Source: a virus
UHGV virus genome: UHGV-1812412
Strand: one strand, 5' to 3'
Length of the DNA: 13,700 nucleotides
How positions within the stretch are numbered: the stretch's first letter is position 1; each line of letters begins with the position of its first letter. This document shows positions 1-13,700 of this stretch, piece by piece. The notes beneath the pieces are model-generated. The model did not search any database. It was given only the letters and a program-made list of their open reading frames with translations, and was not told the DNA's origin. A program made the position numbers and the translations under genes.

Positions 1-660
1 AAGGCTAAAGAGTTCGGCATGACCGGATCAGAGGTTGGCGAGCTTATCGGGAAACTGGTAGTCGGCTTAGCTGGTCTGAAAGTTATTACTACACTGCTTT
101 CCCCTCTAACCGGATTTGTTTCACTTGTCACCCAACTGATTTCTCTGATAGGCAAGATTCCAGGTCTGGGCAATCTCGTTAAGGGTGCTGGCGGGGCAGT
201 CGCTGGAAGCCCAACAACAGCATTAGCCGCTGGCAGTGCCGCAGGTGTGGGTGTTGGTGTCGCTGGCGCACTGGGCGCTAAGACGGTAGGCGAGAAGTTC
301 AGAGGATGGATGCAAAGCAAGGCTGATCAGTTCGGGGAGTGGGCTAAATCTAAAGGCCTGCTTAGCGATGAACAGGACGCTATGACCAAACCGGGGGCCT
401 ATAACCATAGCTACATCAACAAGGGGGCTTCCTTTAATCCATATCCAACCATTAGCCCGTCACGTCCTACTCCTAGCACTGGTACGGCTATTCAGAATGG
501 TGGCTATCAACCTGCTCAGGTTAATGTGGTGCCTCAAGGTGAGATTTCCGGCAAATGGGAGATAACTATTGATGAGGGGGGAATTGCCAGGGTGATCCAG
601 AAGGAAGTCAGCGATCAGTTGGATTGGAAAGCCACACAGGAATCTAACCAGCTTTTCTAA
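1..660 (+). CDS. Partial CDS (5' end outside window): C-terminal part of a phage tail tape-measure-like protein
   Basis: Frame 1 is open from position 1 (AAG GCT AAA GAG TTC GGC precede the first ATG at 19), stop TAA at 658-660. Product has two hydrophobic helices followed by a Gly/Ala-rich segment (GAGGAVAGSPTTALAAGSAAGVGVGVAGALGA), a pattern typical of tape measure C-terminal regions. Assignment is by composition only. Confidence 0.45.
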   Translation, partial: KAKEFGMTGSEVGELIGKLVVGLAGLKVITTLLSPLTGFVSLVTQLISLIGKIPGLGNLVKGAGGAVAGSPTTALAAGSAAGVGVGVAGALGAKTVGEKFRGWMQSKADQFGEWAKSKGLLSDEQDAMTKPGAYNHSYINKGASFNPYPTISPSRPTPSTGTAIQNGGYQPAQVNVVPQGEISGKWEITIDEGGIARVIQKEVSDQLDWKATQESNQLF

Positions 661-768
661 TGTCCACTCTGTGGATTTGAGTTCTACTCAAACCTGCATA
701 GCAGGCACTAATATTGTGATCTAAATCAATAAGTTAGCCTGACCGGATAAACTCCAGGCAAGAAAAAA

Positions 769-793
769 GCCCCTAAGTGTTAACAAAGGGGCT
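769..793 (-). terminator. Hairpin terminator oriented for minus-strand transcripts
   Basis: GCCCC (769-773) pairs with GGGGC (788-792) around a 14-nt loop; an A-tract at 762-768 on the + strand gives a U-tract after the hairpin on the - strand. Lies about 435 nt downstream of the last minus-strand gene. Confidence 0.45.
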
Positions 794-824
794 CTTCTCC
801 GGTATCCTTTTGATGCGGGGCAAA

Positions 825-870
825 ACCTGCTAACAAAAATCAACCTCTCGCGAGACTAATGTTAGCAGGT
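825..870. repeat. Perfect 11-bp inverted repeat (ACCTGCTAACA / TGTTAGCAGGT) with a 24-nt spacer that contains the palindrome TCTCGCGAGA
   Basis: Read directly: 825-835 is the exact reverse complement of 860-870; nested palindrome at 845-854. Confidence 0.7.
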
Positions 871-1227
871 TGCCGGAAGGTAAGTCAACTCCGGCCTATA
901 AACCTTAAAGCGACTATAAAATCGCCCCGCCAATTGTGATGATCCGACCTTTGAGGCGGGTCCGGTGCCCAGGGGGTGCAGTGATGCACAAACCAGGCAA
1001 CGATAAACAGGCTAACAGTGATAGCGGCGCTCAATCAGCGCACTAAATCCTAACCAGTCCGGGAAAGAGGCTGGCTCTATCGACCGCTCATGCACGGGAC
1101 AATGCATACCTGATAAAGGATTCTCACAAGGGACCAATCGCGAGAAAAGAAGTGGAAAGGGGCTGATTTGTGGTGTATCACTACGGCCTCAAAAGAACAC
1201 TATTGTCTTTTTTAAGCCGGACCGTGA

Positions 1228-1686
1228 TTAGCCTCTCCCCACATTTGACCAATATTTGATTGCACCGATCAAATCATCATAGTGGCGCATGGCATCATTG
1301 AAGCCTTTATAGCTTGCCCATTGTGGGGAAACCTTGTTATTGCTGAATTGCCCACTAATCAGGATAGTCTCCAAAATGTCGGCGTATCGCTTGCCAATTC
1401 GCTTTCTGACGGCCTCAGAGCTCCCACCCTTTACGATTGCATTAATCAGGGCTTTTGTGTGTCTCAGGCTCTCATAGAGCATTGCAGCGTGGGCAGATTC
1501 CATAAAGGAGCGCTTAGGCAGATCACCCCACCCCTCAGAATGAATTGCTGCCAGTGTGGCGTAATTCAGGCCGCTATAGTGCTTTCCGTCATCCCAGCCA
1601 ACCGCTACACCTTCCATCTGTGAGAGCTCTTTATGCAGCTTATCCATCATGCGCTTGTCTATGGTGCAACGGACTTTCGGACTCAT
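1228..1686 (-). CDS. Hypothetical phage-associated protein, 152 aa
   Basis: Intact ORF; its ATG (1686..1684) overlaps the stop of the upstream gene in an ATGA arrangement (translational coupling); GGAGA 7 nt upstream. No family recognised. Confidence 0.55.
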   Translation of the reverse strand: MSPKVRCTIDKRMMDKLHKELSQMEGVAVGWDDGKHYSGLNYATLAAIHSEGWGDLPKRSFMESAHAAMLYESLRHTKALINAIVKGGSSEAVRKRIGKRYADILETILISGQFSNNKVSPQWASYKGFNDAMRHYDDLIGAIKYWSNVGRG

Positions 1687-2513
1687 TTGTTGATCTCCGT
1701 GATGTCATCGAGCAACATGTTGGCCTTATCAATCATCGTTTCGTGGAACTCATTCGACACAACAGACTTATCACCTGCGGCAATCTTTCCAGCAGCCTCT
1801 CCCTGTGCATATTCCCCGCGATGCTTAGCCCTGGTTGATTTCGTAGCAGCGTTGCCAGCGTTGCTACCCTCTTTAGCACTATTAACAGCACCCTTTTGCT
1901 GTGTTTTATTCACCTTCTTACTGTTAGTGAAAACTCCGGCATTTTCGACCATCTTCACCTTGAAGGTGCGGAATTCTTCAAAAGTGCAATCAATAGTGAT
2001 GCAGTCACCAGAGGAAGAGCTACGCTTAACTTCACATTTCGTCATGATGAAGTTCTCAAGGAGTCCGGCATCTTCACTTACCAGGCTAACAAGCTGGCGC
2101 TTGTCTCTCATTTCTATAAGTGCCTGAACAGCGGCGGCAGGGCGCATAGATTCACGGGGATTATCTGGATCAGTGTTCCGGTCGATGTAGTTCTCTTTCC
2201 GGATGATATGAGGGGAAGAGGTAATAATGCCCGTAAAGCTGACAGATTTATCTTTAATGACGGCATGGTCTGACATGGTGGTGCCATCCTCGACCGCATA
2301 GCTCGATTTCTCAACAGGGAACGAATAGCTGACATCAGAGATAGAGTCAAAGAAGATAGCCACATTATCGGTATAGTTGAAGCCATCCATTATATTTTTG
2401 TTTTGTGAATATCCCCCACACATAACAGTGAATGCAGGAGATCTCGACTCAGCTTGTTTTGCAGCTGTCAGAGCATCACTAGCCATAGTAAACATGCCTC
2501 CAAATTGGTCCAC
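1683..2513 (-). CDS. Hypothetical protein, 276 aa, with a Lys/Ala/Gly-rich low-complexity C-terminal region
   Basis: Intact ORF coupled to the downstream gene. The first ATG at 2513 has no usable Shine-Dalgarno; an in-frame ATG at 2486 has GGAGG 10 nt upstream and may be the true start. No family recognised. Confidence 0.55.
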   Translation of the reverse strand: MDQFGGMFTMASDALTAAKQAESRSPAFTVMCGGYSQNKNIMDGFNYTDNVAIFFDSISDVSYSFPVEKSSYAVEDGTTMSDHAVIKDKSVSFTGIITSSPHIIRKENYIDRNTDPDNPRESMRPAAAVQALIEMRDKRQLVSLVSEDAGLLENFIMTKCEVKRSSSSGDCITIDCTFEEFRTFKVKMVENAGVFTNSKKVNKTQQKGAVNSAKEGSNAGNAATKSTRAKHRGEYAQGEAAGKIAAGDKSVVSNEFHETMIDKANMLLDDITEINK

Positions 2514-2645
2514 TTCATGGATTTGGCTAAAGCCAAACCTGCAAAAGATGCAGGCAAAATAGAACTTATCGTTGCCCTGCTTAAAATCTGCAGAAAATAC
2601 AGGGCAGTTATTCGTTAGAATCGCTTATAGCTCTTCCCGAGAGCG

Positions 2646-2897
2646 TTATTTTGCAAAACGGTTATGGGCATTCAGGGCTTTTTTGCGGTCCTGGGCTTGT
2701 TTGCGTGCAATAAAATGTTCGAAAGTCTCGGCCCAGGTGCATTTATTATATTCACGGTACTTATGCATAGCCTGGCGGCTAACGTCATAGCAGGCGGCAA
2801 ATGTGGAGATACGCAGAAATTCCGGCAGATCCTCGTCATCGATATGGATAATATCAAAAGGCACGTCGTCACGGTCGCCGTATAAAACAATTTTCAT
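2646..2897 (-). CDS. Small protein, 83 aa, possible helix-turn-helix DNA-binding protein
   Basis: ORF track starts at a GTG at 2906; the in-frame ATG at 2897 has GAGGTG 6 nt upstream. Segment ISTFAACYDVSRQAMHKY resembles an HTH. Function not established. Confidence 0.5.
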   Translation of the reverse strand: MKIVLYGDRDDVPFDIIHIDDEDLPEFLRISTFAACYDVSRQAMHKYREYNKCTWAETFEHFIARKQAQDRKKALNAHNRFAK

Positions 2898-2931
2898 AAA
2901 AGACACCTCAAAAACTTAAGACGGGGATAAT

Positions 2932-2980
2932 AAAAAAGGGAAGAGGGAAAGACCTATCCCCGATCTCTCACCTCTTCCCT
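2932..2980 (-). terminator. Rho-independent terminator immediately downstream of the capsid-like gene
   Basis: 9-bp stem GGGAAGAGG (2938-2946) / CCTCTTCCC (2971-2979) with a 24-nt loop; A6 at 2932-2937 on + gives a U-tract after the hairpin on the - strand. T-rich on the + side too (2980-2994), so possibly bidirectional. Confidence 0.6.
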
Positions 2981-3010
2981 TTGCTTTTATTTGGCCTTCG
3001 AAGAAGGACC

Positions 3011-4054
3011 TTATTTAGCCTTGGCTTTTGCCAGAGCAGCGGCGGCGGAGTTACTAACACTCACTTTAACCACAACCTCAGGCATCATGTTCATGAAAGC
3101 ATAAGAGGATTCAATGAAGATTTCTCGTTTACCTCTGGACTCTTCCATATACATGAAAGCTTCACGTGCAGCGCCGTTTGCAAGCTTCAGGTTGCGAGCG
3201 CAAGGGCCGAAAAATTGAGTATAAACGCCCACCATATCGCCTAACGCATGTGGCTGGAATTGTGGGACCAGATAAGCAGTATTCTCTGGCAGACTATCCA
3301 TTTGCACCACACGCAGAGCTAAGCCCGGAATGCGGAAGGTCGGGAAGCCCGGCAGAATATCCTCAGGGAACATCAGACCTTTATCGGTAATATTCTGATT
3401 GCCGAACAACAGCACTTTACGGAGCAGTTCATCAGTCTGAATAGCGGCGAACACCTCAGCACGGCAGAACAGGGTGAAACCACGCAGAGCGCGAACGACA
3501 CCACGCTGTTTAACCTTGCTCAGTGCAACCAGGTCCTGCAGTTGTTTGAGAATATCTTGAGCTAGATCCATTTCAGAGGTGGACTGTTCCACGCCCAGCA
3601 GTTCGCACACATTCAGCTCTTTACCCTTGGTGAGGATAATTTTGTTCTCAAAGAGAGCAAGCTGGCGTGCTTCTTCGTGGGTCTGGCGTAAGCCTTCGCC
3701 CAGTTGAATAACACGACGAGCGGTTACAGACTCTAAATTCTCTTCGGAATCTTTGCCCGGAACACGGATACCTTGCCAGTCAGAAGGATAAATAGCACTT
3801 GATGCGGCAGTGAATGCCATATCACCCGTGCCCGTTTCACGCTCATCTGCGGTAATGGTCGCCATCTGTTCACCGTAGCGCGGATACTGACCGAAAGCGG
3901 TTTGTTTCACCTGGCGAACTTTGTCATATTCAAATTTAAAGGTATTGCACAGAGCAGTAGTGTTGAAGATATCCATTGCTGAAATAATCTGGTTATCCAG
4001 CGGGATGTCTTTAATCAAGCCACACAGATCGCGGACTTCGAATTCTTTTTTCAT
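3011..4054 (-). CDS. Putative phage major capsid protein (lambda gpE-like), 347 aa
   Basis: Long ORF; ATG at 4054 with GGAGG 6 nt upstream (ORF track begins at a TTG at 4060). N-terminal MDIFNTTALCNTFKFEYD and C-terminal IESSYAFMNMMPEVVVKVSV resemble lambda gpE (TTAQLL...KFKFD; MIQSAPLMLLADPDEFVSV) as recalled from memory, not search-verified. Followed by a strong terminator, as expected for a highly expressed capsid gene. Confidence 0.55.
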   Translation of the reverse strand: MKKEFEVRDLCGLIKDIPLDNQIISAMDIFNTTALCNTFKFEYDKVRQVKQTAFGQYPRYGEQMATITADERETGTGDMAFTAASSAIYPSDWQGIRVPGKDSEENLESVTARRVIQLGEGLRQTHEEARQLALFENKIILTKGKELNVCELLGVEQSTSEMDLAQDILKQLQDLVALSKVKQRGVVRALRGFTLFCRAEVFAAIQTDELLRKVLLFGNQNITDKGLMFPEDILPGFPTFRIPGLALRVVQMDSLPENTAYLVPQFQPHALGDMVGVYTQFFGPCARNLKLANGAAREAFMYMEESRGKREIFIESSYAFMNMMPEVVVKVSVSNSAAAALAKAKAK

Positions 4055-4065
4055 CTCCAACCTCC

Positions 4066-4401
4066 TTATTGTGCAACACGCAAATCGCCATTGCTGGCAG
4101 CGATAACAGCGGCTAAGCCTTCTTTATCCACGTAGGCCGGATTGATATAACAGCCCTTGTTGGCAACAACGATAAAAGCATCACCAACCTCAGCACGTTC
4201 TACAACCAGCAGCGGAGTTTTATCGGTGTGCGTTTCTTTAACGAAGGTCTCAACCTCGCCAGCCTCAGTCACCACAACAACAGTGCCAGCCGGAATCTCA
4301 GCTTTAACTTTGTTTTTAATTTCAACGTCGCGAATACTAAATTGCTCATCTGCGGCGTATGAAATGATGTGTCCGCGTGTGCGGATAGTCATATCTCTCA
4401 T
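4066..4401 (-). CDS. Putative head decoration / capsid accessory protein, 111 aa
   Basis: ORF ends 11 nt before the capsid start; AGGTGA 6 nt upstream of its ATG. Size and position directly upstream of the capsid gene fit a decoration or cement protein. Function is by context only. Confidence 0.45.
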   Translation of the reverse strand: MRDMTIRTRGHIISYAADEQFSIRDVEIKNKVKAEIPAGTVVVVTEAGEVETFVKETHTDKTPLLVVERAEVGDAFIVVANKGCYINPAYVDKEGLAAVIAASNGDLRVAQ

Positions 4402-5215
4402 TTGATCACCTGCGATTTAAATTAACTCCCCTCAAAGAGTTCCGGTATAACCTCTCAAACCACGACGCTCGGGCCGAAAAGTTATGCCGGAAATCTAAAG
4501 GGAAATTGATACAAGGAGAGGGAGATAGCCCCGCACCGTCCAAGCGGGGGCTATTCCATATGGGGAAAACCAACAACAGTTGGCTGATAGTTCACAGTAT
4601 GGGTTACTAGAGAGCACTATCACGAAAGACACTCCCCCGAATCAGTTCAGGCTGCGGTCACATCAGCGGGGAAATACCTTTCGGGATAGCTACCCACACA
4701 GAAAACCCGCAAAAGAAAACTGTGTGGATAACTAGCCCAATAGGAGAATTAATCGACCACTCAACGATGATCAGGGTAGTGTTATTTATAAGGCGGCACC
4801 GCTACCTGGTCGCCTTTACTTTGGAGGAAAATACGGCAAATCAAGATCTTCTCACAATGATATTGACGCCATACTGTATATTATATCAGTATTTACTCAC
4901 ATTGTCAACACCCTGATTATATAAATTCTAATAATTAGCGTAGTAACGGTATTTTCAGACCTCTATCAATCCCATCAATACGTCACCCCACCCTTTAGAT
5001 GCATACATCCGACCTACTTTGTAGGCTTGGCGTACTGCCAAGGTCGCAGCTATGCGACTCCTATCTATCACCACTTTATAAAGCTTGATAGATATCCGTT
5101 GATCAATATCAATGTTTTCCGGGGATTTACCCGGCTATAGTTCGAATCAAGGAAGGGGAGCATTGATAGCACCCAACCGAGCAAACAAATCAACTTCTCG
5201 CAAAAGGTTATAGAT

Positions 5216-5338
5216 ATGGGTATCAAGAACAGTGCCAGCGCATGGCAAAAGGCCAGGTTTCATCACCCACACATGGTTAAGGCAATTGAGGTGGTTGGAG
5301 TTTTAGCCCTGATGTTAGCTCTGTGTGTGGAGGTGTGA
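5216..5338 (+). CDS. Micro-ORF, 40 aa, hydrophobic C-terminus (MGIKNSASAWQKARFHHPHMVKAIEVVGVLALMLALCVEV)
   Basis: ATG preceded by AAAGG 8 nt upstream inside a 17-nt leader motif that is duplicated before the membrane protein gene; its stop is 1 nt before the next ATG. Confidence 0.25.
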   Translation: MGIKNSASAWQKARFHHPHMVKAIEVVGVLALMLALCVEV

Positions 5339-5339
5339 G

Positions 5340-5420
5340 ATGGGCAAAGGAGGCAAAGCATTTTTAATAGGTCTGGCAGTCTTAGATTTTGTATTAATCA
5401 TCATTGAGCGGAGTTTATGA
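5340..5420 (+). CDS. Micro-ORF, 26 aa, single hydrophobic helix (MGKGGKAFLIGLAVLDFVLIIIERSL)
   Basis: ATG at 5340 with GGAGG 6 nt upstream; its stop overlaps the ATG of the following HTH gene (ATGA at 5417-5420). Confidence 0.25.
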   Translation: MGKGGKAFLIGLAVLDFVLIIIERSL

Positions 5421-5677
5421 CGGGAACTAAAGATATTAAGAGACTGAGGGAAGAGCTGATAGCTGAAATTAAAGCGAAGGCAAAGCAAATGGAGATAGCC
5501 GCACAAATGGATGTAGCGGAACAGATGTACAAGATGGTTGAGGAGGGAACGCCACGACAGGTTATAGCAAAAACCTTCGGTGTGGGGATCGCCACCGTGC
5601 ACAGAAGGCTGAAAGCCTATGCCGACTACCACAATATCGAGAGAAAGGAGGATGGGAGATTTAAGAAGAATAAATAG
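5417..5677 (+). CDS. Small DNA-binding protein with resolvase/invertase-type helix-turn-helix, 86 aa
   Basis: Segment TPRQVIAKTFGVGIATVHRRLK matches the pattern of the Hin/Gin-type C-terminal HTH (PRQ-LA-FG-G-ST--R, recalled from memory); N-terminal half predicted coiled coil. No catalytic recombinase domain present. Confidence 0.65.
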   Translation: MTGTKDIKRLREELIAEIKAKAKQMEIAAQMDVAEQMYKMVEEGTPRQVIAKTFGVGIATVHRRLKAYADYHNIERKEDGRFKKNK

Positions 5678-5769
5678 TGTGAACAGTCCAATAGGTTAAG
5701 CTCTGGCTCATAGCCCTCGCCTCGAGGGTGTTATTAACTAAATTCAACTTCTCGCAAAGGGGTACCATT

Positions 5770-6291
5770 ATGTTATTTCAGAAAGATAAAGAATCAGAAA
5801 ACAAAAAGCTTTTTAAAGCAATAGTAAAAATGTTCTTTCAGTACACTGCAGCGTTTTTGATAGCCGGGCCTTGGTTAATGGCTATCTGTTTTTACCCTGC
5901 TACCTTGTTTATTGGCAGTAGCAAGTTCGGCGATGGCCCGTTTCATGTGGATATTGGTTTTATAGATTCTCTCCTGATCCGTCCTATAAATGCTGTTCTC
6001 AATGCTTTCTACTTCCCCACTAGTCTAGAGGGGTGGTCGGTAACCTGGGGTGTTTTAGGCTTAGCATATGTATATTGGTTGGTTGGCTTTTTGTGGGGTG
6101 CAATCTGTGCTCTCCTCGATATTGATACAGGATCAAGCCGTAGGAGTGGTGGTAATAATAGCGGAGCGGGTGTATATGCACACGTAGGTACCAGAGGGGT
6201 AAGTATCACCGCAGGTACCCGATTCGCTGGCGGCTGGCTGAGCATAGGCAAACGCGGCGTTAGTTGGAGAAAAAGCAAAAAACTGTTCTGA
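5770..6291 (+). CDS. Membrane protein, 173 aa from ATG 5770, with at least two hydrophobic helices and a Gly-rich basic tail containing a repeated G-x-R-G-V-S motif
   Basis: ORF track starts at a GTG at 5728; the ATG at 5770 has AAGGGG 7 nt upstream. Hydrophobic helices FFQYTAAFLIAGPWLMAICFYPATLFI and WGVLGLAYVYWLVGFLWGAICALL; tail has GTRGVS and GKRGVS. Terminator directly downstream. Confidence 0.6.
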   Translation: MLFQKDKESENKKLFKAIVKMFFQYTAAFLIAGPWLMAICFYPATLFIGSSKFGDGPFHVDIGFIDSLLIRPINAVLNAFYFPTSLEGWSVTWGVLGLAYVYWLVGFLWGAICALLDIDTGSSRRSGGNNSGAGVYAHVGTRGVSITAGTRFAGGWLSIGKRGVSWRKSKKLF

Positions 6292-6298
6292 CCTACCA

Positions 6299-6322
6299 GG
6301 GGGGCCATCACGGCCCCTTTTT
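6299..6322 (+). terminator. Rho-independent terminator after the membrane protein gene
   Basis: GGGGCC (6301-6306) / GGCCCC (6312-6317) stem with 5-nt loop, followed by TTTTT (6318-6322). Confidence 0.7.
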
Positions 6323-7636
6323 ATTTATCCCTCAATTAACCCCTATTTATCCCCTATTTAATGCCTATTTATTGATTTAATCCGTTTTATGCCACAACCG
6401 CCCGGTTGACAGAGTAAGAGAGAGGGTGTAACCCTTTTTCGTAATACCAATAAAATCAATAGCTTAGCTCAATTGGCCTTTTCTCTGTTTTTGTCAAATT
6501 TAACATACCCTCAAAAACTGCAAAATCTGGCTGCAAGATTATCTGCAGCTGGATTTCTTACACCTCAATTTGTGGTATCACCCTGACTAGTTTGTGCATA
6601 AAATGAACAGTTTTTAACATTTCCTCCTCACCTGGTAACCACACAAAAAGCTAAAAACGAGGCACAGATAATCTTAGAGGCCTGTTTTCTTGTTATCACT
6701 CTGGGAACGTCGTAGAAGTGATTTTGATGAAAGACGGCCTACCCTATTACACCCCCATTTTTTGTTATCACAATTGCATCCTGTGCGGTATATGACTATG
6801 TGCTGAAAGCGGTCTCAGGTGTTGGTGTCAGAAATATCCATTAGCGGTATTTGAGCTTATGGGTAACTCGTCTGAGGTGCCAGGCAGGCGCTCCCCTACC
6901 TCCCCTTTTTCTTCTAACAATTCTCAAATATCACACCACTGCCCACCACGTTGCTATTATGTTAATTCTTAAGCTTTGCTGTATGTTGTGCACATTATTT
7001 ATTCAGATGCATGTACGTAAATTCTGTGCCCACTGATCATGATTTTTAAATCAGATTTTGTAGTGCGCTTTATTAGTGTAGATAAGATCTATTATGTTAA
7101 ATGCAATTTTCCCAACCCTTCAAATCAATGACTTACATGTAAGCATGCACTAACACCCCACACAGCACATTAGACGTGTAGATGTCTATATCCCACATTT
7201 TTGATTGTTTTGTAGTCATTCCCCTGATCATTTAACCAGTATAGTTTGCTCTCTGCAGACCACAAAATCGGAATTTACATCTGATTAACATAATCTGTTA
7301 GCATGATCACCATTACCCACACAACAATAACCCCATGCAAGCCTCTTCAGGCAATTTATCGGCGTGTTGGTGTGAACAGTCTTTCATGTTCTTTATGTAT
7401 TCATGACTGCAAGGAATGTATTCATTGGCCTGTGTGGGGGAAGGATGGACTGCCTCAGGGGCCATACTTATGATGCCCGGTCAACATAGCTGTTGATAAA
7501 ATCAATGGGTGTTGATCTGCGTATTTCCCACACATGAGAGGAAATCAAAGCAAAGAGAGAGGAGAGAGGTTTGTTAGTCAAAATAGGTCAATTGACGGCT
7601 AATACAGAGTAAAAAATCAGATGCAATCACTCCCCC

Positions 7637-7819
7637 ACCTGTTGGGATTTCCCTCACCTGTATAAGAATACAGTCATACTTTCCCGTTATACGGTCATAC
7701 ACATGATGGAATAACCTGTTGGAATTTCCCACAGGTTCAACCATACATAAGCATTAACCTGTTGGAATTTCCTACTACTACCTGTCGGTATTTCCCACAG
7801 GTACCTGTTGGAATTTCCC
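7637..7819. repeat. Iteron array: five direct copies of a 17-mer ACCTGTYGGWATTTCCC
   Basis: Copies at 7637-7653, 7714-7730, 7757-7772, 7780-7796, 7803-7819; the last three are exactly 23 bp apart. Two copies are followed by the inverse ACAGGT. Partial copies of the ATTTCCCACA core at 7522-7534 and 8321-8333. Confidence 0.75.
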
Positions 7820-7911
7820 ACACTAATAGATAAAGAGAATAGATTAATAAAAAGATACCCCCCTAACCCCCCAGGGGGAATGGGGAGGGATCAGAGAGTG
7901 GGGAAGGTTTT

Positions 7912-8014
7912 CTAGATGTACGTAATTGGTACACTTAAAGGTGGATAATATGAGGCTAGATGTACGTAATTGGTACACTTAGAATATTCTAGATGTACGT
8001 AATTGGTACACTTA
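7912..8014. repeat. Three identical 26-bp direct repeats CTAGATGTACGTAATTGGTACACTTA, each with an internal dyad TGTAC-N7-GTACA
   Basis: Copies at 7912-7937, 7956-7981, 7989-8014; start-to-start spacing 44 and 33 bp (multiples of about 11, same helical face). A near DnaA box GGTGGATAA lies at 7940-7948. Confidence 0.8.
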
Positions 8015-8339
8015 AATCACATAAGTTATTGAGTTTATTAGAAAAAGTGATTCACCTATATATACTACTGATTCGCCTCCGCTCATCATTAGTATGGTGT
8101 AACTGATTCATGCTTCGCTTACGCTCACATTCATCTACTTACACCCCCTTATCTGAATTGAACATTCCCGTCCAATCCAGCTAAGAGAATTGATTGAACA
8201 TTACCTAACATCCGTTAGCTAACATTCTAATCAATTAACTACTTAATCACTTCCACACCTTCCGGTGGTGCCAAGTGTCCTGGCATGGTGGGAAAAGATT
8301 CTGCCGTTTTAGGTAGAATTGATTTCCCACAAATAGTAA

Positions 8340-8660
8340 GTGTCGGCCCTTCAATGTCACTCTCCTATGAGGGGGAGAGATGACGGGCCTCCTGTGTGGG
8401 TGAGTATCGGAGCAGTCTGTGAAGTATGAGCAGGCTGTGAGATACGCTACTGTATATCTGCGTAGAACAGCCTCCGCTGTTTACGCTCTTTGTGTGGGTC
8501 CGGCGAATGCGACAGCATGAGGCCCACATGTGGACCGCTGCCGAAAGCTTGCCAGCGCCGGAAGGAGGCGGCAAAGAGTCTCCCGCGCGGTTGTAGGTCC
8601 GCGCCGGACTTTAACTTACAGTTAAACCCTTCGGGCTTGTGCGGGTGCACGCACACATAT
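8340..8660. other. GC-rich, hairpin-dense non-coding island, candidate structured RNA or DNA processing site
   Basis: Sharp rise in GC relative to AT-rich flanks. Local stems include TCTCC/GGAGA (8361-8379), GCGCGG/CCGCGC (8585-8604), TTTAAC/GTTAAA (8609-8625) and GTGCG/CGCAC (8639-8654). The only ORFs are two overlapping Arg/Pro/Ser-rich minus-strand frames without RBS. Confidence 0.3.
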
Positions 8661-8843
8661 ATATAAAGGATACACTCATAAATCGAAAATAAGCGCGATT
8701 TTAGCGCCTACAGCGAGATAAACTATACTCCCTAGTGTAATTGCATTACCTGATGCTTAAATCGCGTTGTAGGGCCTCTCATGAGGTTTGAGTTTAACAC
8801 CCTCCAAAGTTTTAACAAAAAGTGCTCTCCCTCCATTGTGGGC

Positions 8844-9013
8844 CATTGACAATCTTATTGCATAAATGCTATAAGTTATTCTGATTTTGACACGGTAGGG
8901 GCCATTAATAATGCTTACCCCTTTGCTGTGGACTTGCTTGTGTCTGCTGTGCAGGCTATGGCACCTATAGCTCGCCTAAATGATAATGATTCCTATTGAC
9001 AATTGGTTGTCAA
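8844..9013 (+). promoter_or_regulatory. Operator-like 9-bp palindromes ATTGACAAT overlapping -35-like TTGACA hexamers; candidate tandem promoters
   Basis: ATTGACAAT at 8844-8852 and 8995-9003; the second is part of an 18-bp dyad TTGACAA-TTGG-TTGTCAA (8996-9013). Possible promoters: TTGACA 8846-8851 + 18 nt + TATAAG 8870-8875; TTGACA 8996-9001 + 17 nt + TAAGAT 9019-9024. Confidence 0.4.
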
Positions 9014-9059
9014 TATGATAAGATTATAGATAGTGGGAGAAACAGATCCGGAGGTCAAC

Positions 9060-9209
9060 GTGGAACTGAGCGACGCTATAGCGATCATCAACCTGGCTGT
9101 ACTGTGGTGCGGTGTTGCCTACATAGCCGGAGTAACTGCAATCGACAACCTTGAAGAAAAAATGATAGATAAATACAAAAAGATTGTTGACAATCTCGCA
9201 AATAGCTGA
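9060..9209 (+). CDS. Small hydrophobic protein, 49 aa, GTG start
   Basis: GGAGG at 9050-9054, 5 nt before the GTG at 9060; product MELSDAIAIINLAVLWCGVAYIAGVTAIDNLEEKMIDKYKKIVDNLANS has one predicted transmembrane helix. Not in the supplied ORF track (below the length cutoff). Confidence 0.35.
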   Translation: MELSDAIAIINLAVLWCGVAYIAGVTAIDNLEEKMIDKYKKIVDNLANS

Positions 9210-9215
9210 TAAAAT
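9182..9215 (+). promoter_or_regulatory. Sigma70-type promoter with an operator dyad over the -35
   Basis: -35 TTGACA (9187-9192), 17-nt spacer, -10 TAAAAT (9210-9215); dyad GATTGT-TG-ACAATC (9182-9195) overlaps the -35 and shares the TTGACAAT core with the upstream palindromes. Confidence 0.5.
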
Positions 9216-9263
9216 ATAAATCATAGGGTAATTCTCAGCATGTGAATTTTCCTTAAACAGACT

Positions 9264-9295
9264 AGCGGGGCTTGTCTTGAGTCCCGTTTCTTTTT
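9264..9295 (+). terminator. Promoter-proximal hairpin plus U-tract (attenuator or 3' end of a short RNA)
   Basis: CGGGGC (9266-9271) pairs with GTCCCG (9281-9286), with one G-U pair, around a 9-nt loop, followed by TTTCTTTTT (9287-9295). Sits about 50 nt after the predicted start site and 44 nt before the next ATG. Confidence 0.5.
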
Positions 9296-9338
9296 AAACC
9301 TACATCGCACAGGCGGTGAGCCAACAGGAGATTGAATC

Positions 9339-9548
9339 ATGGCTAAAACTGGACCGATCAGCCAGCTGGTAGACTGGACTACTGACGAAATCGTCGAGAA
9401 CGTGCTTAAAGGTAACTTTCGAAAAACTTCTGTTTATGCATTTATTCGAAAACACAAAGGAGAATATCCACACATTGAAGCGGCAATAGAAAAACTTAAC
9501 TTTATTAAACTTGAGCGCCAGCTGGAAAGATATAAACACCTACTTTGA
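9339..9548 (+). CDS. Small protein, 69 aa, possibly DNA-binding
   Basis: AGGAG at 9326-9330, 8 nt before the ATG; first gene after the promoter/attenuator. No family recognised. Confidence 0.6.
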   Translation: MAKTGPISQLVDWTTDEIVENVLKGNFRKTSVYAFIRKHKGEYPHIEAAIEKLNFIKLERQLERYKHLL

Positions 9549-9584
9549 TAAAAGGTAACCGTAACCCGGTAAGAGGTAAACATT

Positions 9585-10454
9585 ATGAATATTAAGTCTG
9601 TTTTTAATATAACTTTAAATGATGATCCTAGTATCCTTTTGCTGCCTATGCTCATAAACAAATCTGGACTATTAAAAAAAGGCGACGCAAGGGATATTTA
9701 TATTTATATGTGGAATATTTACTATCTCAACGCTAAAAAAGAGGCCGCCAAGGTGTTCAGTAAGAAGACTAAAGGAAGAAGCCTCAGTCAGGATATGAAA
9801 GATTCCATAAGAAAAGAATGTTTTGCAATTAATGATAAAGATTCCTGTGTGGAAATCTCTTATAAGGATATAGAGGAAAGAGTAGGAATATTACGACCAC
9901 ACGCAGTAAGGGCAATTAAAAAGCTGGAATCTGAAGGAATTATCACCTGCCTTAAAAAAGGCAATAAGCATAACCCTTATGCATCATGGCAAATTAATGT
10001 CGGAATCTTTGAAATGATGGAAAGAGTAGGGATTGAAAACCTCATTGGGTGGGATCTCTTAAAACCATATTGGAAGAAAGAACAGGAAGCAGCCGGAAGA
10101 GGGGAGGGGGATAAAGCCCCGCAAGAAGCCCCAAAACAGGCCGCACAGCAAGCTAAAAAGGCCGAGGTGGTGCAGTTCCCTTCTACGAAAGATAAGAGCG
10201 TCAGAATCGAGCGTAGCTCTCATCCTGAAAGTGTGACAACGTCACCTGTTAAGACAAACAATGAAGGGCCAGTGAAAGAGATACCCAAAATTATAGACAT
10301 TTCTTCTTTTATGGCAGATGAGGAAGATATGCAAGATGAGTGGTGGACACCTCCAGAAAATAATGATTATGGTTATGATCCTTATGGCTATGATGAAGAT
10401 GAATATAGCCCGTTTGAAGATGAATATATAAATGATTCCGCTATCCCTTATTAA
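9585..10454 (+). CDS. Winged-helix DNA-binding protein, 289 aa, with a Lys/Ala/Gln-rich linker and an acidic, aromatic C-terminal tail; candidate replication initiator or regulator
   Basis: AAGAGGT 7 nt before the ATG. Segment ISYKDIEERVGILRPHAVRAIKKLESEGIITC has the classic winged-helix pattern seen in replication initiators and MarR-like regulators; C-terminus DEEDMQDEWWTPPENNDYGYDPYGYDEDEYSPFEDEY. Function inferred. Confidence 0.75.
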   Translation: MNIKSVFNITLNDDPSILLLPMLINKSGLLKKGDARDIYIYMWNIYYLNAKKEAAKVFSKKTKGRSLSQDMKDSIRKECFAINDKDSCVEISYKDIEERVGILRPHAVRAIKKLESEGIITCLKKGNKHNPYASWQINVGIFEMMERVGIENLIGWDLLKPYWKKEQEAAGRGEGDKAPQEAPKQAAQQAKKAEVVQFPSTKDKSVRIERSSHPESVTTSPVKTNNEGPVKEIPKIIDISSFMADEEDMQDEWWTPPENNDYGYDPYGYDEDEYSPFEDEYINDSAIPY

Positions 10455-10542
10455 TACCCCCAAATAAACTAAATAAACTAAACATAGAATTACTAGAACT
10501 AGATTGATTGCCCTGATCTTTTAAACGTTCGGAGAATTAATC

Positions 10543-11028
10543 ATGTTCAAATCTGATCTTTCTGATTCCCAATTTGAAAAACTGGTAGCACTGCAGAAAT
10601 ATCTCCCCAGTGATGATCAACCAACACGACAGGCCAAACACTTATTAGTCGAGGGCTTTACCCCTGAATTCGTAGCGGAATATACAGGCGTTAAACTTGA
10701 GAAAGTCCAAAAACTATATAATGAGTCCTGGAATCCACGGTGTCGAGTTCCCCTCAGTGTCTATAACGAAATAGATAGAGATAAAAATGTCTTCGAAGAT
10801 CGCCGCCGCAAATCTCTTTTAATGTGGAATTGCGGGATGAATATTGAAGAGATAGCAAAAGAATTAAAAGTAACCTGCTTTCATATTTGGGGCTTGTTGA
10901 GTGAAATCCTGCCACGTAAGGAGCTTAATCAACGTTTGCCTAAGCCCGGTAGTCGTGCTTATCGCGAATTTATATTCATCTACCGCCGCCATAGCAATAA
11001 AGTCCGGAAAGCAATGCAGCGCAAATAG
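10543..11028 (+). CDS. Hypothetical protein, 161 aa, with two HTH-like segments and a basic C-terminus
   Basis: GGAGA 7 nt before the ATG; HTH-like segments FTPEFVAEYTGVKLEKVQKLY and MNIEEIAKELKVTCFHIWGLL. Could be a small terminase subunit-like or regulatory protein; not resolved. Confidence 0.7.
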   Translation: MFKSDLSDSQFEKLVALQKYLPSDDQPTRQAKHLLVEGFTPEFVAEYTGVKLEKVQKLYNESWNPRCRVPLSVYNEIDRDKNVFEDRRRKSLLMWNCGMNIEEIAKELKVTCFHIWGLLSEILPRKELNQRLPKPGSRAYREFIFIYRRHSNKVRKAMQRK

Positions 11029-11116
11029 CTTATAGCCTTCACATATGCCGCAAGTTATTGATTCTGCCGTCCGGTAAATATGCCGGATGGCTCATATAAA
11101 TTTTAAGGAATTCCAA

Positions 11117-11560
11117 ATGTCTCAAATCGCTAAATTACTATCCCAGGTTATCAAAGCTATCGACGCTGAAGATTCAAAAGTTCGCCAGGATCTTTTAGAT
11201 GGCAAGTTTACCAATACTCTGGCATTTACCCGTGACAAAGAGCACTTCTTAGAGCACAAACATCCCGCCTTTGTTGAATGCAAGTCCGCTAATGGTGATG
11301 TTTTCTATGTCGATTTGGTGGTTATGGCTATGCGCCTGTGGATGATTCAGGACCTTATGCGCCAACACGGTGATGATCCTCTTATCAGCATGTGGAACAG
11401 CGCCCAGGATGGCTTTGTGATTGCTGCCTTATCCAAATCCATGATTGAGGCAGAAGGCGCAAGCCTTCAAAACATGGCAGATCTCTTTGAAATAAGCGTA
11501 GGAATGATGCAGACCATGCTGCAGGCGGTGAAGCCTCTCAAGCTGGTTAACCTTGAATAA
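11117..11560 (+). CDS. Hypothetical protein, 147 aa
   Basis: ORF track begins at an ATG at 11087 with no RBS; the in-frame ATG at 11117 has AAGGAA 6 nt upstream. Followed by a terminator. Confidence 0.65.
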   Translation: MSQIAKLLSQVIKAIDAEDSKVRQDLLDGKFTNTLAFTRDKEHFLEHKHPAFVECKSANGDVFYVDLVVMAMRLWMIQDLMRQHGDDPLISMWNSAQDGFVIAALSKSMIEAEGASLQNMADLFEISVGMMQTMLQAVKPLKLVNLE

Positions 11561-11571
11561 TTGATTAATAA

Positions 11572-11606
11572 GCACCCTCAAAAAATGGGGGTGCCTTTAT
11601 TTATCT
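11572..11606 (+). terminator. Rho-independent terminator
   Basis: GCACCC (11572-11577) / GGGTGC (11589-11594) stem followed by the T-rich run CTTTATTTATCTT. Confidence 0.6.
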
Positions 11607-11638
11607 TACTTTTCACGTTTATCTAAAAGGATATGCCT

Positions 11639-12022
11639 ATGAATATTGAAGAAATGATAGTTGAATTCGATGATGGTGATTTCCTGGAAGATGGGGAGTT
11701 TAAATACTCCCGTTTTAAACAGGCGTTATTTAGCAGCGATGATAAACCCCACGTTAGTGATCTAAATGACGATGATTTATGTCGCTGGGTATGCACCCGC
11801 TTATATGAGGATGGAAAATATACAGGCCAAAACTTTCCAAATCTCTATTTCAAAGCACAAACATTTGAGGAAGGGCAAAGAGTGAAAAACCTGGTCGATA
11901 AAATGCTGTCAGCCGGATATTTGCATAAAGAATTATTAAATCCTAAAGCTGAAAGCAAGCGCCATTATATTTTTGTGTGGACTATTGGCGATAAGTGTCC
12001 ACTAAGACGCAAAGGCAAATGA
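11639..12022 (+). CDS. Acidic protein, 127 aa, in the position of a tail assembly chaperone
   Basis: ATG at 11639 has AAGGA 8 nt upstream (the ATG at 11633 is too close to it). Product is strongly acidic at the N-terminus; sits two genes upstream of the tape measure gene, as gpG-like chaperones do. Inferred from position and composition. Confidence 0.55.
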   Translation: MNIEEMIVEFDDGDFLEDGEFKYSRFKQALFSSDDKPHVSDLNDDDLCRWVCTRLYEDGKYTGQNFPNLYFKAQTFEEGQRVKNLVDKMLSAGYLHKELLNPKAESKRHYIFVWTIGDKCPLRRKGK

Positions 12023-12023
12023 T

Positions 12024-12209
12024 ATGAATACCTACGAAAAGATTTATCAAAAATTAAAAAGTGATAACAATGCTCCCGTCATCAAGGGCGGGGCTTCTTC
12101 CTCTGGTGACCTCTCAATCGAAGAGCTTGCGGAGAAATATAATATTGATAAAGAGGCCCTGAAAAGGGCTATTTCATTATCAAAATCTTTAAGACAGGGC
12201 GAGGTGTAA
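12024..12209 (+). CDS. Small protein, 61 aa, immediately upstream of the tape measure gene
   Basis: ATG 1 nt after the stop of the preceding gene (TGA-t-ATG); ends 3 nt before the tape measure ATG. Could be independent or the extension part of a frameshifted chaperone. Confidence 0.45.
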   Translation: MNTYEKIYQKLKSDNNAPVIKGGASSSGDLSIEELAEKYNIDKEALKRAISLSKSLRQGEV

Positions 12210-12212
12210 GAG

Positions 12213-13700
12213 ATGGCAATGAAGGAAGTCGCCAGACTAACAAACGTTATTTACTGGGATTCTGATAAATCCAGCTGGCGAAAAGAAGTTAAACGGCTTG
12301 AGGATTATAAAAAATCCTGGAAGAAAGCCACCGACGATATAGCTAAAGCTGATTTTAAATCTAATCAGGCTGTGCTCAGAACACAAAGAACACGCGCTAA
12401 GGTGGAAGAGCAGATTGCCAGAGCTCAGAGGAAACAACAGGAAGCACAGAAGAAACAACGTGCTCAGGCTGTCAGCCGTCTGACCGGGGGCAACAATGCC
12501 GAACTTAACTCTATGCGCAAGTTCTATCAGCAGCAAGCCAGAGAGGCCGCCAGACAACAAAAACTGTTAGATCGTAGTGTTGGAGATGTTCAGCACAGAA
12601 AAGCACGTGTAGGGGCCAACAGTGCACGAATTAGCGGCATGTTTGATGGCTCTATCGTCTCCCAGTTCCAGGGGCGCATTCAAAGAGTTAATGCTGATTA
12701 TGCTAAAGGGGCTATAAACCTGCAGACCTATAATCAGAGGATGGCTCGGCTCAGAGCTGAAATGAAGATGGCAACAGCAGAGGCCGGAAAATTTCAGAGC
12801 AGACTGGATAAACTGGCATCAGGTGCCAGCAAGGTGCATGACAACCTGGGCAAAATCAACTCCACACTAGGCAAGATAGCCATTGGCCTTACTGCCGCTG
12901 GCTGGGGTGTTCAGCGTGCTGTTAGTGGTGCTATGGGTAGCCTTGCAGATCGCAACAGTGCCTACTTCGGTTTAATGGCTCAGAACAAGGATGATAAAGC
13001 CAAGACTGATCAGCAGATGGCTTTTATCAAGAACACAGCCTACACCTATGGGATGGATGAGCGGGAGATGCAAGGGGGCTACATGCGCTTTGCTGCAGCT
13101 ACTCCCACCATGAAGGAATCTGATAAGCAGGCTCTTTTTGAGGCTATGGCTATTAAAGGTCGCTCAGTGGGTGCTACTGGCGAGCAACAGAACAGGGCGC
13201 TTGTTGCGGTCCAACAAATGGCTTCAAAGGGAAAAGTTATGGCAGAAGAGCTGCGGGGCCAACTGTCAGAAGCCTTTGCAGGCTCACAACAGGATTTTCA
13301 ACAGGCCGCTATTGATGCCGGAATCATCAAGAATGCCCAGGAATTCGATAAAGCCCTTAAAGATGGCAAAATCACCCTGGACAAACTTCTTCCTTCTCTG
13401 GTGAAAATCTGGGGTGCAGCAAAAGAAACTAAAGCTTTTGCTGAATCCATGAAACAACCGGAAGTAGCACTGCAGCGCATGAAAAACAGCTTTAACGAGC
13501 TGGCGATTCAGTTTATGGGTGTTGTGGATCCTGCGGATGGCGTTATTAGCTTATCTGAATCTCTGATCTCCATCTTCGAAGACCTCACCACTGATATGGA
13601 CGGCAGCGGGAGCGCGGCAAAACAGTTCGGTGAGGCAGTCGGGGCTGCCATGCGTGAGATCATGTATTGGGTAGGCTTCGCTAAGGGATATATTGAGGTC
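12213..13700 (+). CDS. Partial CDS (3' end outside window): N-terminal part of a phage tail tape measure protein
   Basis: ATG at 12213 with GAGGTG 7 nt upstream; frame stays open to the window edge (496 codons). Missing from the supplied ORF track because it has no stop in the window. Coiled-coil N-terminus, then NRALVAVQQMASKGKVMAEELRGQLSEAF, which matches the conserved tape-measure domain pattern. Confidence 0.8.
   Translation, partial: MAMKEVARLTNVIYWDSDKSSWRKEVKRLEDYKKSWKKATDDIAKADFKSNQAVLRTQRTRAKVEEQIARAQRKQQEAQKKQRAQAVSRLTGGNNAELNSMRKFYQQQAREAARQQKLLDRSVGDVQHRKARVGANSARISGMFDGSIVSQFQGRIQRVNADYAKGAINLQTYNQRMARLRAEMKMATAEAGKFQSRLDKLASGASKVHDNLGKINSTLGKIAIGLTAAGWGVQRAVSGAMGSLADRNSAYFGLMAQNKDDKAKTDQQMAFIKNTAYTYGMDEREMQGGYMRFAAATPTMKESDKQALFEAMAIKGRSVGATGEQQNRALVAVQQMASKGKVMAEELRGQLSEAFAGSQQDFQQAAIDAGIIKNAQEFDKALKDGKITLDKLLPSLVKIWGAAKETKAFAESMKQPEVALQRMKNSFNELAIQFMGVVDPADGVISLSESLISIFEDLTTDMDGSGSAAKQFGEAVGAAMREIMYWVGFAKGYIEV

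What the first reader, a model, noticed from the sequence alone, without database searches (positions are those of the whole stretch)
7637..7819. Five-copy 17-bp iteron array with 23-bp phasing
ACCTGTYGGWATTTCCC occurs five times in 183 bp, the last three spaced exactly 23 bp. This is the architecture of iteron-type origins or arm-type recombinase binding arrays. No initiator gene is adjacent; the nearest candidate, the 289-aa winged-helix protein, starts about 1.8 kb away.
Basis: seen in the sequence. Interest (0 to 1): 0.7.

Follow-up and report, generated by a model that had tools for sequence, protein, structure and literature searches.

The report
Orphan iteron origin in phage-like plasmid
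The five repeats are real initiator-binding sites of a lambda-style replication origin, but this small E. coli phage-like plasmid lacks the matching initiator and probably replicates from a second repeat set next door.

Summary
Observation confirmed: five copies at 7637, 7714, 7757, 7780 and 7803, against 0.1 expected by chance. The true unit is a 23-bp near-palindrome.

The window is a complete circular 13.7-kb Escherichia plasmid with phage structural genes. In relatives, four phased 23-bp sites (spacing 43/23/23) plus a distal site sit between conserved flanks. They are followed by the least stable AT-rich DNA of the element and a G/C inverted repeat, the layout of lambda's origin.

The repeat sequence comes in at least seven types. 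In 20 elements the type tracks the recognition helix of a two-domain winged-helix initiator, with no exception (0 of 200,000 permutations).

This window carries type A repeats but not the type A initiator. Its 289-aa protein belongs to another winged-helix lineage. That lineage covaries in four types with three 30-bp repeats at 7910-8016.

Sibling elements with this initiator have deleted the 23-bp origin core, or collapsed it to one site. The array here is therefore best read as an orphan origin cassette, 99.5-100% identical to that of plasmid pE275a_13. That points to recent recombination.

The iteron-origin reading is supported. The 289-aa partner and the recombinase-arm-site alternative are not. 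This is a new member of a known kind, of moderate interest.

The parts
7637..7659 (.).
   Evidence: A near-identical site sits at the same place in nearly all relatives regardless of their core iteron type. The same 77-bp offset to the core is seen in L029.
7714..7736 (.). Core iteron 1, type A, ACCTGTTGGAATTTCCCACAGGT (10 of 11 dyad-matched pairs)
   Evidence: Identical in L001 and L003, which encode the type A initiator.
7757..7779 (.). Core iteron 2, type A
7780..7802 (.). Core iteron 3, type A
7803..7825 (.). Core iteron 4, type A, abutting the AT-rich stretch
7823..7857 (.). AT-rich stretch (83% A+T), candidate DNA-unwinding element of the type A origin cassette
   Evidence: Least stable 35-bp duplex of the whole 13.7-kb window: -33.5 kcal/mol against a mean of -45.9, sd 3.9. 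Conserved motif CTAATAGATAAA in all relatives that have a core array.
7858..7889 (.). G/C-run inverted repeat CCCCCCTAACCCCCCAGGGGGAATGGGGAGGG closing the cassette
   Evidence: Read. Conserved in relatives. The hairpin is no more stable than shuffles. It also matches a minus-strand terminator-like pattern.
7910..8016 (.). Three 30-bp repeats (7910, 7954, 7987), each with the palindrome TGTAC-N7-GTACA: inferred cognate iterons of the 289-aa protein (second origin)
   Evidence: Present only in elements with the window-type initiator. Their sequence changes in step with that protein's helix and wing variant, in four types.
8012..8075 (.). Second AT-rich stretch, right of the 30-bp repeats
   Evidence: -35.8 kcal/mol at 8012, 71-83% A+T. 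Retained in siblings that lack the first origin cassette.
9585..10454 (+). 289-aa protein: N-terminal winged-helix domain (about 1-170) plus a disordered acidic tail. Inferred initiator for the 30-bp repeats, not for the 23-bp array
   Evidence: Weak PHROG hits to O-like initiator families, 3e-5. AlphaFold model. 44 near-full-length (283-304 aa) homologue clusters, all on 13.5-14.4-kb Escherichia contigs. Covariation.

Best explanation
The array is the initiator-binding part of a lambda-ori-like replication origin cassette, here called specificity type A. It belongs to a family of 13-14-kb Escherichia plasmids with phage structural genes.

In cognate elements the inferred sequence of events is as follows. 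Dimers of a two-domain initiator (N-terminal winged helix, disordered linker, C-terminal domain) occupy four phased 23-bp palindromes plus a distal site. The resulting nucleoprotein complex melts the adjoining AT-rich stretch, and host replication proteins are recruited there.

In this window the matching initiator gene has been replaced by a different winged-helix protein (289 aa). That protein pairs with three 30-bp repeats about 90 bp further right. The 23-bp array is therefore an orphan origin, brought in or kept by recent recombination with a type A relative. It is probably not needed for this plasmid's own replication.

Shown:
- the repeats, their dyad symmetry and their phasing;
- the AT-rich minimum in duplex stability;
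- the cassette-like variation between conserved flanks;
- the two covariation patterns;
- loss or collapse of the array in sibling elements.

Inferred: actual binding, unwinding, origin firing, and the dispensability of the array in this particular plasmid.
For: Repeats and palindromy.

The window is a whole circular element. The tape-measure ORF runs 12213 to 13700 and on to 660. Relatives are 13.2-13.7-kb circular plasmids.

The array lies between conserved flanks, and its sequence is swapped as a cassette. There are seven types, A-G, with the same 43/23/23 spacing.

The AT-rich stretch next to iteron 4 is the least stable DNA in the window.

The initiator is the only hypervariable protein: 28-36% identity, against 94-100% for most other proteins compared. 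It matches phage replication-initiator families: PHROG 1e-8 to 1e-12, and Pfam HTH_36.

Recognition-helix class maps to iteron type without exception in 20 elements, and 0 of 200,000 permutations are as consistent. N-terminal identity is a median 98% within a type and 56% between types, while the C-terminal domain reassorts freely.

The window has no type A initiator.

The 289-aa lineage covaries with the 30-bp repeats in four types.

Elements with this lineage carry an A, B or D core, a single site, or no core at all.

Window 7637-7909 is 99.6-100% identical to L001, while the flanks are 89-95% identical.
Against: There is no experimental evidence of binding or origin activity for any member of the family.

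The initiator identity of both protein lineages rests on weak to moderate profile hits and on position. Fold searches return mostly generic winged-helix regulators.

The origin and the initiator gene are only 1.2-1.8 kb apart, so part of the covariation could be linkage. Different intervening sequences and freely reassorting C-termini argue against that.

The orphan array is fully intact. Both elements sampled with the window's helix variant carry a type A core (window and L019). A related variant keeps one A-like site. So a retained function cannot be excluded.

The G/C inverted repeat plus T-run also fits a minus-strand terminator pattern.
Confidence: 0.7

Rival explanations
1. One reading: the 23-bp array is this plasmid's working origin, fired by the 289-aa winged-helix protein encoded 1.8 kb away.
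For: The 289-aa protein gives weak hits to O-like initiator families. It is the only initiator-like gene in the window. The array is intact and adjoins the weakest duplex in the element. Both sampled elements with the same helix variant carry a type A core.
Against: L001 and L003 have identical arrays but an initiator only about 28% identical to this protein. Close homologues of the 289-aa protein sit with type B or D arrays, with one site, or with none. The protein's helix variants track the 30-bp repeats instead.
Confidence: 0.08
2. The 23-bp sites are operators of an immunity-type or autoregulatory repressor rather than origin iterons. On this reading the hypervariable winged-helix proteins are repressors, and the elements replicate by some other means, for example an RNA-primed origin in the large ORF-poor region.
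For: Repressor-operator pairs also diversify as matched cassettes in phages (established knowledge). Fold searches return mainly MarR/LexA-like regulators. The element has 3.3 kb of conserved ORF-poor DNA of unknown function.
Confidence: 0.1
3. The orphan array is kept because it is useful. One version has it titrating the type A initiator of competing relatives (incompatibility decoy). The other has it letting this plasmid replicate from a co-resident relative's or helper's initiator.
For: The array is fully intact. Four window-type elements keep complete non-cognate cores. All elements keep solo sites of foreign specificities upstream of their core. Ectopic lambda origin copies block lambda replication (PMC4488673).
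Against: Seven of thirteen sampled window-type elements (L015-L018, L021-L023) have deleted the whole core cassette, and in L035/L036 it is collapsed to one site. That fits neutral decay. The 99-100% identity to canonical modules fits recent recombination. No co-residence of two family members was seen in complete genomes. No phage carries type A arrays.
Confidence: 0.1
4. The repeats are recombinase arm-type sites, a partition centromere, or terminase (cosB-like) recognition sites.
For: Phased direct repeats occur in all of these systems (established knowledge). An 86-aa protein with a resolvase-type HTH is encoded at 5417-5677.
Against: No integrase, ParA/ParM/TubZ or terminase gene was found. 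There are no chromosomal copies. The 86-aa HTH protein is 94-100% conserved across all iteron types. The specificity follows the initiator-like protein instead.
Confidence: 0.02

Closest known systems
Bacteriophage lambda origin (ori-lambda) and O protein; Stx-phage origins with six iterons
   Same: Four imperfect inverted-repeat sites at about two-turn phasing. Lambda has 18-bp sites with start spacing 20/24/23; here the units are 23 bp with spacing 43/23/23. Both are followed by an AT-rich stretch and then an inverted repeat. The initiator has an N-terminal DNA-binding domain and a separate C-terminal domain. Extra distal iterons exist in Stx phages (PMC7466680). Matched origin/initiator specificity types among otherwise similar genomes are known for lambdoid phages (my own knowledge).
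   Different: The origin is intergenic, 1.2-1.8 kb upstream of the initiator gene, not inside it. There is no detectable pairwise homology to lambda O (BLASTP E>1; hhalign probability 0.1). No P-like helicase-loader gene was recognised. In this window the cognate initiator is absent.
RepA_N / DnaD-like replisome-organiser initiators of Gram-positive plasmids and phages (e.g. the pSK41-type RepA, PDB 4pta)
   Different: Generic winged-helix regulators score equally well, so the fold does not discriminate. Those initiators usually have their iterons inside the rep gene (my own knowledge). The host is Escherichia.
Iteron plasmids of Enterobacteria (pSC101, R6K, F, P1) with extra iteron sets acting in copy control and incompatibility
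   Same: Direct repeats next to an AT-rich region. Iteron sets not needed for initiation can titrate or handcuff the initiator (established knowledge; handcuffing in PMC5397158, listed). This is a possible parallel for an array without a local function.
   Different: There is no Rep_3-type protein. DnaA boxes are not enriched at the site: only 1-mismatch matches, and none inside the cassette. Each site here is palindromic. In those plasmids the extra iterons match the plasmid's own initiator, whereas here they match another element's.

Membership tests
Iteron-type replication origin (general class) | Three or more direct repeats of about 17-23 bp in helical phase | tested here: met
   Five copies, with the core four at 43/23/23 spacing. 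Chance expectation is 0.1.
Iteron-type replication origin (general class) | Adjacent AT-rich DNA-unwinding region | tested here: met
   7823-7857 is the least stable 35-bp duplex of the 13.7-kb element.
Iteron-type replication origin (general class) | A cognate initiator encoded by the same replicon whose DNA-binding specificity matches the repeats | tested here: not met
   Met in 20 relatives by helix-iteron covariation. This window encodes no type A initiator. Its 289-aa protein tracks other repeats.
Iteron-type replication origin (general class) | Repeats plus initiator suffice for autonomous replication, and cloned repeats exert incompatibility | not testable with these tools
   Needs mini-replicon and incompatibility assays.
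Lambda O / ori-lambda family | Four inverted-repeat iterons, then an AT-rich region, then an inverted repeat | tested here: met
   The lambda record was read directly and compared with window 7714-7889.
Lambda O / ori-lambda family | Origin lies inside the initiator gene | tested here: not met
   The array is intergenic in the window and in all relatives, 1.2-1.8 kb upstream of the initiator gene.
Lambda O / ori-lambda family | Initiator homologous to lambda O | tested here: inconclusive
   PHROG O-like families match at 3e-5 (289-aa protein) and at 1e-7 to 1e-10 (canonical initiator). Direct BLASTP to lambda O gives E>1 and hhalign gives probability 0.1.
Rep_3 (RepA/pi/RepE) iteron plasmids | Rep protein of the Rep_3 family with two winged-helix domains, and DnaA boxes at the origin | tested here: not met
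   No Rep_3 match in Pfam. DnaA-box matches are at 1 mismatch only and none lies in 7714-7889.
Arm-type recombinase binding array (attP) | Adjacent tyrosine integrase, and integrated copies in chromosomes | tested here: not met
   No integrase domain. All 9 places in 5,426 E. coli genomes are on plasmids.
Partition centromere (parS/parC/tubC) | Adjacent ParA, ParM or TubZ NTPase and a centromere-binding protein | tested here: not met
   No such domain in any ORF scanned.

The most novel reading that the evidence does not exclude
Members of this plasmid family deliberately keep binding sites for other members' initiators. These are complete non-cognate origin cores, as in this window, and solo sites of foreign specificity upstream of every core. 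On this reading they serve as weapons or lifelines. They would titrate a competitor's initiator (specificity-targeted incompatibility), or let the element be replicated by a co-resident relative or helper. That would make the origin region a record of, and a player in, an arms race among at least seven origin specificities on one backbone.
Probability: 0.12. Interest if true: 0.75.

Novelty: new member of a known kind. Interest (0 to 1): 0.5.

Why it matters
Taken alone, the array is an ordinary kind of object: iterons of a theta-type origin.

What gives it some value is the natural experiment around it. On a nearly constant 13.7-kb backbone there are at least seven matched pairs of iteron type and recognition helix. 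Some differ by only a few residues and a few bases:
- Type A and type G differ in the outer arms of the site and by V to A in the helix.
- Types D and E are decided by the helix and not the wing.

A second, unrelated initiator lineage has its own four matched repeat types. There are also hybrids that carry an origin without its initiator.

This is a compact system for reading a winged-helix recognition code, and for studying how origins and initiators are exchanged, orphaned and lost. The host element may deserve more attention than the repeats. It is a plasmid with capsid, decoration, tape-measure and baseplate genes but no recognisable terminase or portal gene. No paper on it was found in the library searched.

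Tried and rejected
- Megablast and blastn of the region against 50,697 phage records: no match.
- tblastn of the 289-aa protein against phages: none. Against plasmids: only CP020521.
- IMG/VR scan with protein p161: nothing.
- IMG/VR scan for the 17-mer: ten single hits and no arrays, taken as chance from my own rough estimate.
- Rfam at gathering and at E<=1 thresholds: nothing. tRNA scan: none.
- Sequence searches of solved structures (PDB): nothing for either initiator lineage.
- Foldseek with the 289-aa model (mean pLDDT 55): only weak MarR-like matches, not used for classification.
- DnaA boxes: 28 one-mismatch matches against 13.7 expected across the window, but none in the cassette. One (TTATCCACC, 7940-7948) lies between 30-bp repeats but is not conserved in siblings, so it was dropped.
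- G/C inverted repeat as a hairpin or terminator: no more stable than shuffles.
- The small 69-aa ORF (9339-9548) looked like a covarying candidate at first. Its variation follows backbone lineage, not iteron type.
- I searched elements carrying a 166-aa version of the window-type protein for matching repeat arrays: none found.
- Five literature searches, four aimed at the host element, found no description of this element family.
- The left-flank figures for L019, L020 and L002 are not homologous positions and were not used.

Full report
**Observation.** The pattern ACCTGTYGGWATTTCCC occurs on the + strand at 7637, 7714, 7757, 7780 and 7803. Shuffles expect 0.10 matches, and none of 200 reached the observed number. 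Start-to-start spacing is 77, 43, 23, 23. Tandem Repeats Finder reports a period-23 array at 7757-7825. The real unit is 23 bp and nearly palindromic (ACCTGTtGGAAtTTCCcACAGGT). It has 10 of 11 dyad-matched pairs against a chance mean of 2.8. Each site therefore looks like a target for a protein dimer.

**Context.** The window is a complete circular element.
- A 715-aa tape-measure ORF runs from 12213 through the window end to 660.
- The closest records are circular 13.2-13.7-kb E. coli plasmids, plus one 39.6-kb head-to-tail trimer.
- All nine matches of the 7500-8100 origin segment in 5,426 complete E. coli genomes are on plasmids, none on a chromosome.
- The element encodes a major capsid protein, a decoration-like protein, a Dit-like baseplate protein, a tail-completion-like protein and a tape measure. 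No terminase, portal, integrase or partition NTPase was recognised.
- About 3.3 kb (6300-9585) has no long ORF.

**Anatomy in relatives.** I aligned the region from nine plasmids and then from further contigs. The array lies between conserved flanks.
- On the left is GAGAGGTTTGTTAGTCAA.
- On the right is CTAATAGATAAAG... (A+T-rich), then a G/C-run inverted repeat, then GGGATCAGAGAGTGGGGAAGGTTTT.
- Every canonical relative has four core units with the same 43/23/23 spacing, but the unit sequence differs as a cassette. At least seven types were seen:

| Type | Unit |
|---|---|
| A | ACCTGTTGGAATTTCCCACAGGT |
| B | ACCCCGGTAAATATTTCCGGTGT |
| C | ACCTGTCAAAATATTTTACTACT |
| D | ACCCCGGAAGATTTCTCCGGTGT |
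| E | ACTACTGAAGATTTCTCACTACT |
| F | ACCTGGGGAAAAATTACCGGGGT |
| G | ATATGCTGGAATTTCCCGCATAT |

- L029, a type A element, reproduces the full 77/43/23/23 layout.
- In the window, the 35 bp right after iteron 4 (7823-7857, 83% A+T) is the least stable duplex of the whole 13.7 kb.
- Upstream of the core, relatives carry solo sites of other types. The window's copy 1 is such a site and is nearly universal.

**Who binds the array.** Most proteins compared are 94-100% identical across relatives. The exception is the gene at the position of the 289-aa ORF, which drops to 28-36%.
- In most relatives this gene encodes a 288-306-aa protein. It has an N-terminal winged helix, a low-complexity linker (QEAPKQAxQQ) and a C-terminal domain that reassorts independently.
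- It matches phage replication-initiator families (PHROG 1e-8 to 1e-12, 'O-like' and 'DnaD-like') and Pfam HTH_36.
- Its recognition-helix class maps to iteron type without exception in 20 elements:

| Recognition helix | Iteron type | Elements |
|---|---|---|
| LRKDRGKIVSAIKS | A | four elements with different wings and C-termini |
| LRKDRGKIASAIKS | G | L014 |
| YDATEKTVRSAIKT | B | L005, L009 |
| SRPTVINSIKS / SRPTIIKAIKS | C | L004; L030, L031 |
| SDRKIRDSIKS | D | includes two elements with an E-type wing |
| SDRKIIESIKT | E | L007, L024-L027 |
| TPKTVRTAIHS | F | L008, L010 |

- None of 200,000 permutations is as consistent.
- N-domain identity is a median 98% within a type and 56% between types.

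**The window is an exception.** It carries type A sites but no type A initiator. tblastn with the L001 initiator finds only the weak (31.6%) similarity to the 289-aa gene.
- The 289-aa protein belongs to a second lineage, with 44 near-full-length (283-304 aa) clusters at 73-100% identity, nearly all on contigs of about 13.5-14.4 kb and all source-named ones from E. coli.
- It has a winged-helix N-domain and a disordered acidic tail.
- The window shares two segments only with other members of this lineage: the gene itself, and 7915-8490, which starts with three 30-bp repeats.
- The lineage has discrete helix and wing variants, and the 30-bp repeat core changes with them:

| Helix / wing variant | Repeat core | Elements |
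|---|---|---|
| LRPHAVRA / NKHNPYASWQ | TGTACGTAATTGGTACA | window, L019 |
| LRPNAVRA / ..ASWK | TGTATCAATTAATACA | L035, L036 |
| ARTDALKA / NRWNPKATYQ | TGTGCG.T..CAGCACA | L015, L020 |
| LQPNIARA / NRWNPAATY. | ATATCAATNTGATAT | L002, L016-L018, L021-L023 |

- By contrast, the 23-bp core in these elements is type A (window, L019), D (L020) or B (L002). It is collapsed to a single site by recombination between repeats (L035, L036), or deleted together with its AT-rich stretch and G/C repeat (L015-L018, L021-L023).
- A second AT-rich stretch lies right of the 30-bp repeats (8012-8075) and is kept in all of them.

**Age of the orphan cassette.** Window 7637-7909 is 99.6-100% identical to L001, while the flanks are 89-95% identical. 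L020's module is 99.0% identical to that of L032. Cognate type A arrays differ from each other by about 7%. The near-identity therefore points to recent exchange rather than absolute constraint.

**Mechanism.** In cognate elements I infer lambda-like initiation. Initiator dimers bind the four phased palindromes plus the distal site. They wrap the DNA and open the adjacent AT-rich stretch, and the C-terminal domain recruits host replication factors.
- The gene layout fits this. Transcription units diverge from the 7.8-kb region and converge at 660-1228, opposite on the circle.
- In this window the type A sites have no protein to bind them. Replication is inferred to start at the 30-bp repeats with the 289-aa protein.

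**Comparison with known systems.** I read lambda's origin from NC_001416. It has four 18-bp iterons with start spacing 20/24/23, then an AT-rich stretch, then an inverted repeat, all inside gene O (PMC7466680). The layout matches. The location differs (intergenic here), and so does the protein (no pairwise homology to O). Rep_3-type plasmids, att sites and partition centromeres fail defining features (see the membership table).

**Rivals.** The operator/repressor reading is weakened by four things: no promoter-like site overlaps the array, the distance to the gene, the initiator-family matches, and the duplex-stability minimum. It is not excluded. A retained decoy or rescue function for the orphan array is possible. 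Against it stand the frequent deletion of the cassette in siblings and the absence of type A arrays in phage collections.

**Verdict.** The iteron-origin interpretation is right in kind, the proposed partner is wrong, and in this plasmid the array is most likely a recently acquired orphan origin. It is a new member of a known kind. Its interest is moderate and rests mainly on the natural set of matched specificities and on the uncharacterised host element.

Noticed in passing
whole window (1-13700): The window is a complete circular 13.7-kb Escherichia plasmid. It carries capsid, decoration-like, Dit, tail-completion-like and tape-measure genes, but no recognisable terminase, portal, tail tube or integrase. 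One relative record (NZ_CP043822) is a 39.6-kb head-to-tail trimer. One initiator homologue (P0066) is labelled from a Caudoviricetes virome assembly. It may be a plasmid-borne phage satellite or a minimal phage-plasmid. No paper on it was found.
   Followed up: partly
7910-8075: Three 30-bp repeats with TGTAC-N7-GTACA cores, followed by an AT-rich stretch. They covary in four types with the helix and wing variants of the 289-aa protein lineage. They are probably this plasmid's working origin.
   Followed up: yes
10094-10454 (C-terminal third of the 289-aa protein): The tail is disordered and strongly acidic, and ends ...EDEYINDSAIPY. From memory this resembles the SSB C-terminal tip (DDDIPF) that recruits replication proteins. 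Not tested.
   Followed up: no
L024-L029, L032, L033 (relatives): Some relatives encode both a 165-172-aa protein homologous to the N-domain of the 289-aa protein and, directly downstream, a canonical initiator. The 289-aa gene looks like a fusion of that small gene to the shared linker (QEAPKQAAQQ). No repeat array matching the small protein was found.
   Followed up: partly
relatives L002, L004-L010, L015-L023 (region homologous to 7590-7720): Upstream of each core array lie solo 23-bp sites of other specificity types, in a mosaic that differs between elements. The 30-bp arrays likewise have solo sites of other types in front. This is either a fossil record of cassette swaps or a functional decoy set.
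   Followed up: partly
L035 and L036 (homologous to 7637-7825): The five-copy array is collapsed to a single site joined directly to the AT-rich stretch, as expected from recombination between copy 1 and copy 5.
   Followed up: yes
6322-6372: TATTTATCCCC repeated 4.6 times (period 11; also readable as period 22), directly after a terminator-like hairpin at 6298-6320. It is conserved in L029. Function unknown; possibly another protein-binding array.
   Followed up: no
6300-7600 and 8330-9300: Long ORF-poor DNA that is 86-97% conserved among relatives. It includes a hairpin-rich stretch with recurring GTGTGGG/CCCACAC motifs around 8330-8600. No Rfam match. It could hold RNA genes or packaging signals.
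   Followed up: partly
660-1228: The two gene blocks converge here, diametrically opposite the 7.8-kb origin region on the circle. This fits bidirectional replication ending at this point.
   Followed up: no
7940-7948 (- strand): A DnaA-box-like TTATCCACC lies between 30-bp repeats 1 and 2. It is kept in L019 but not in other siblings.
   Followed up: partly
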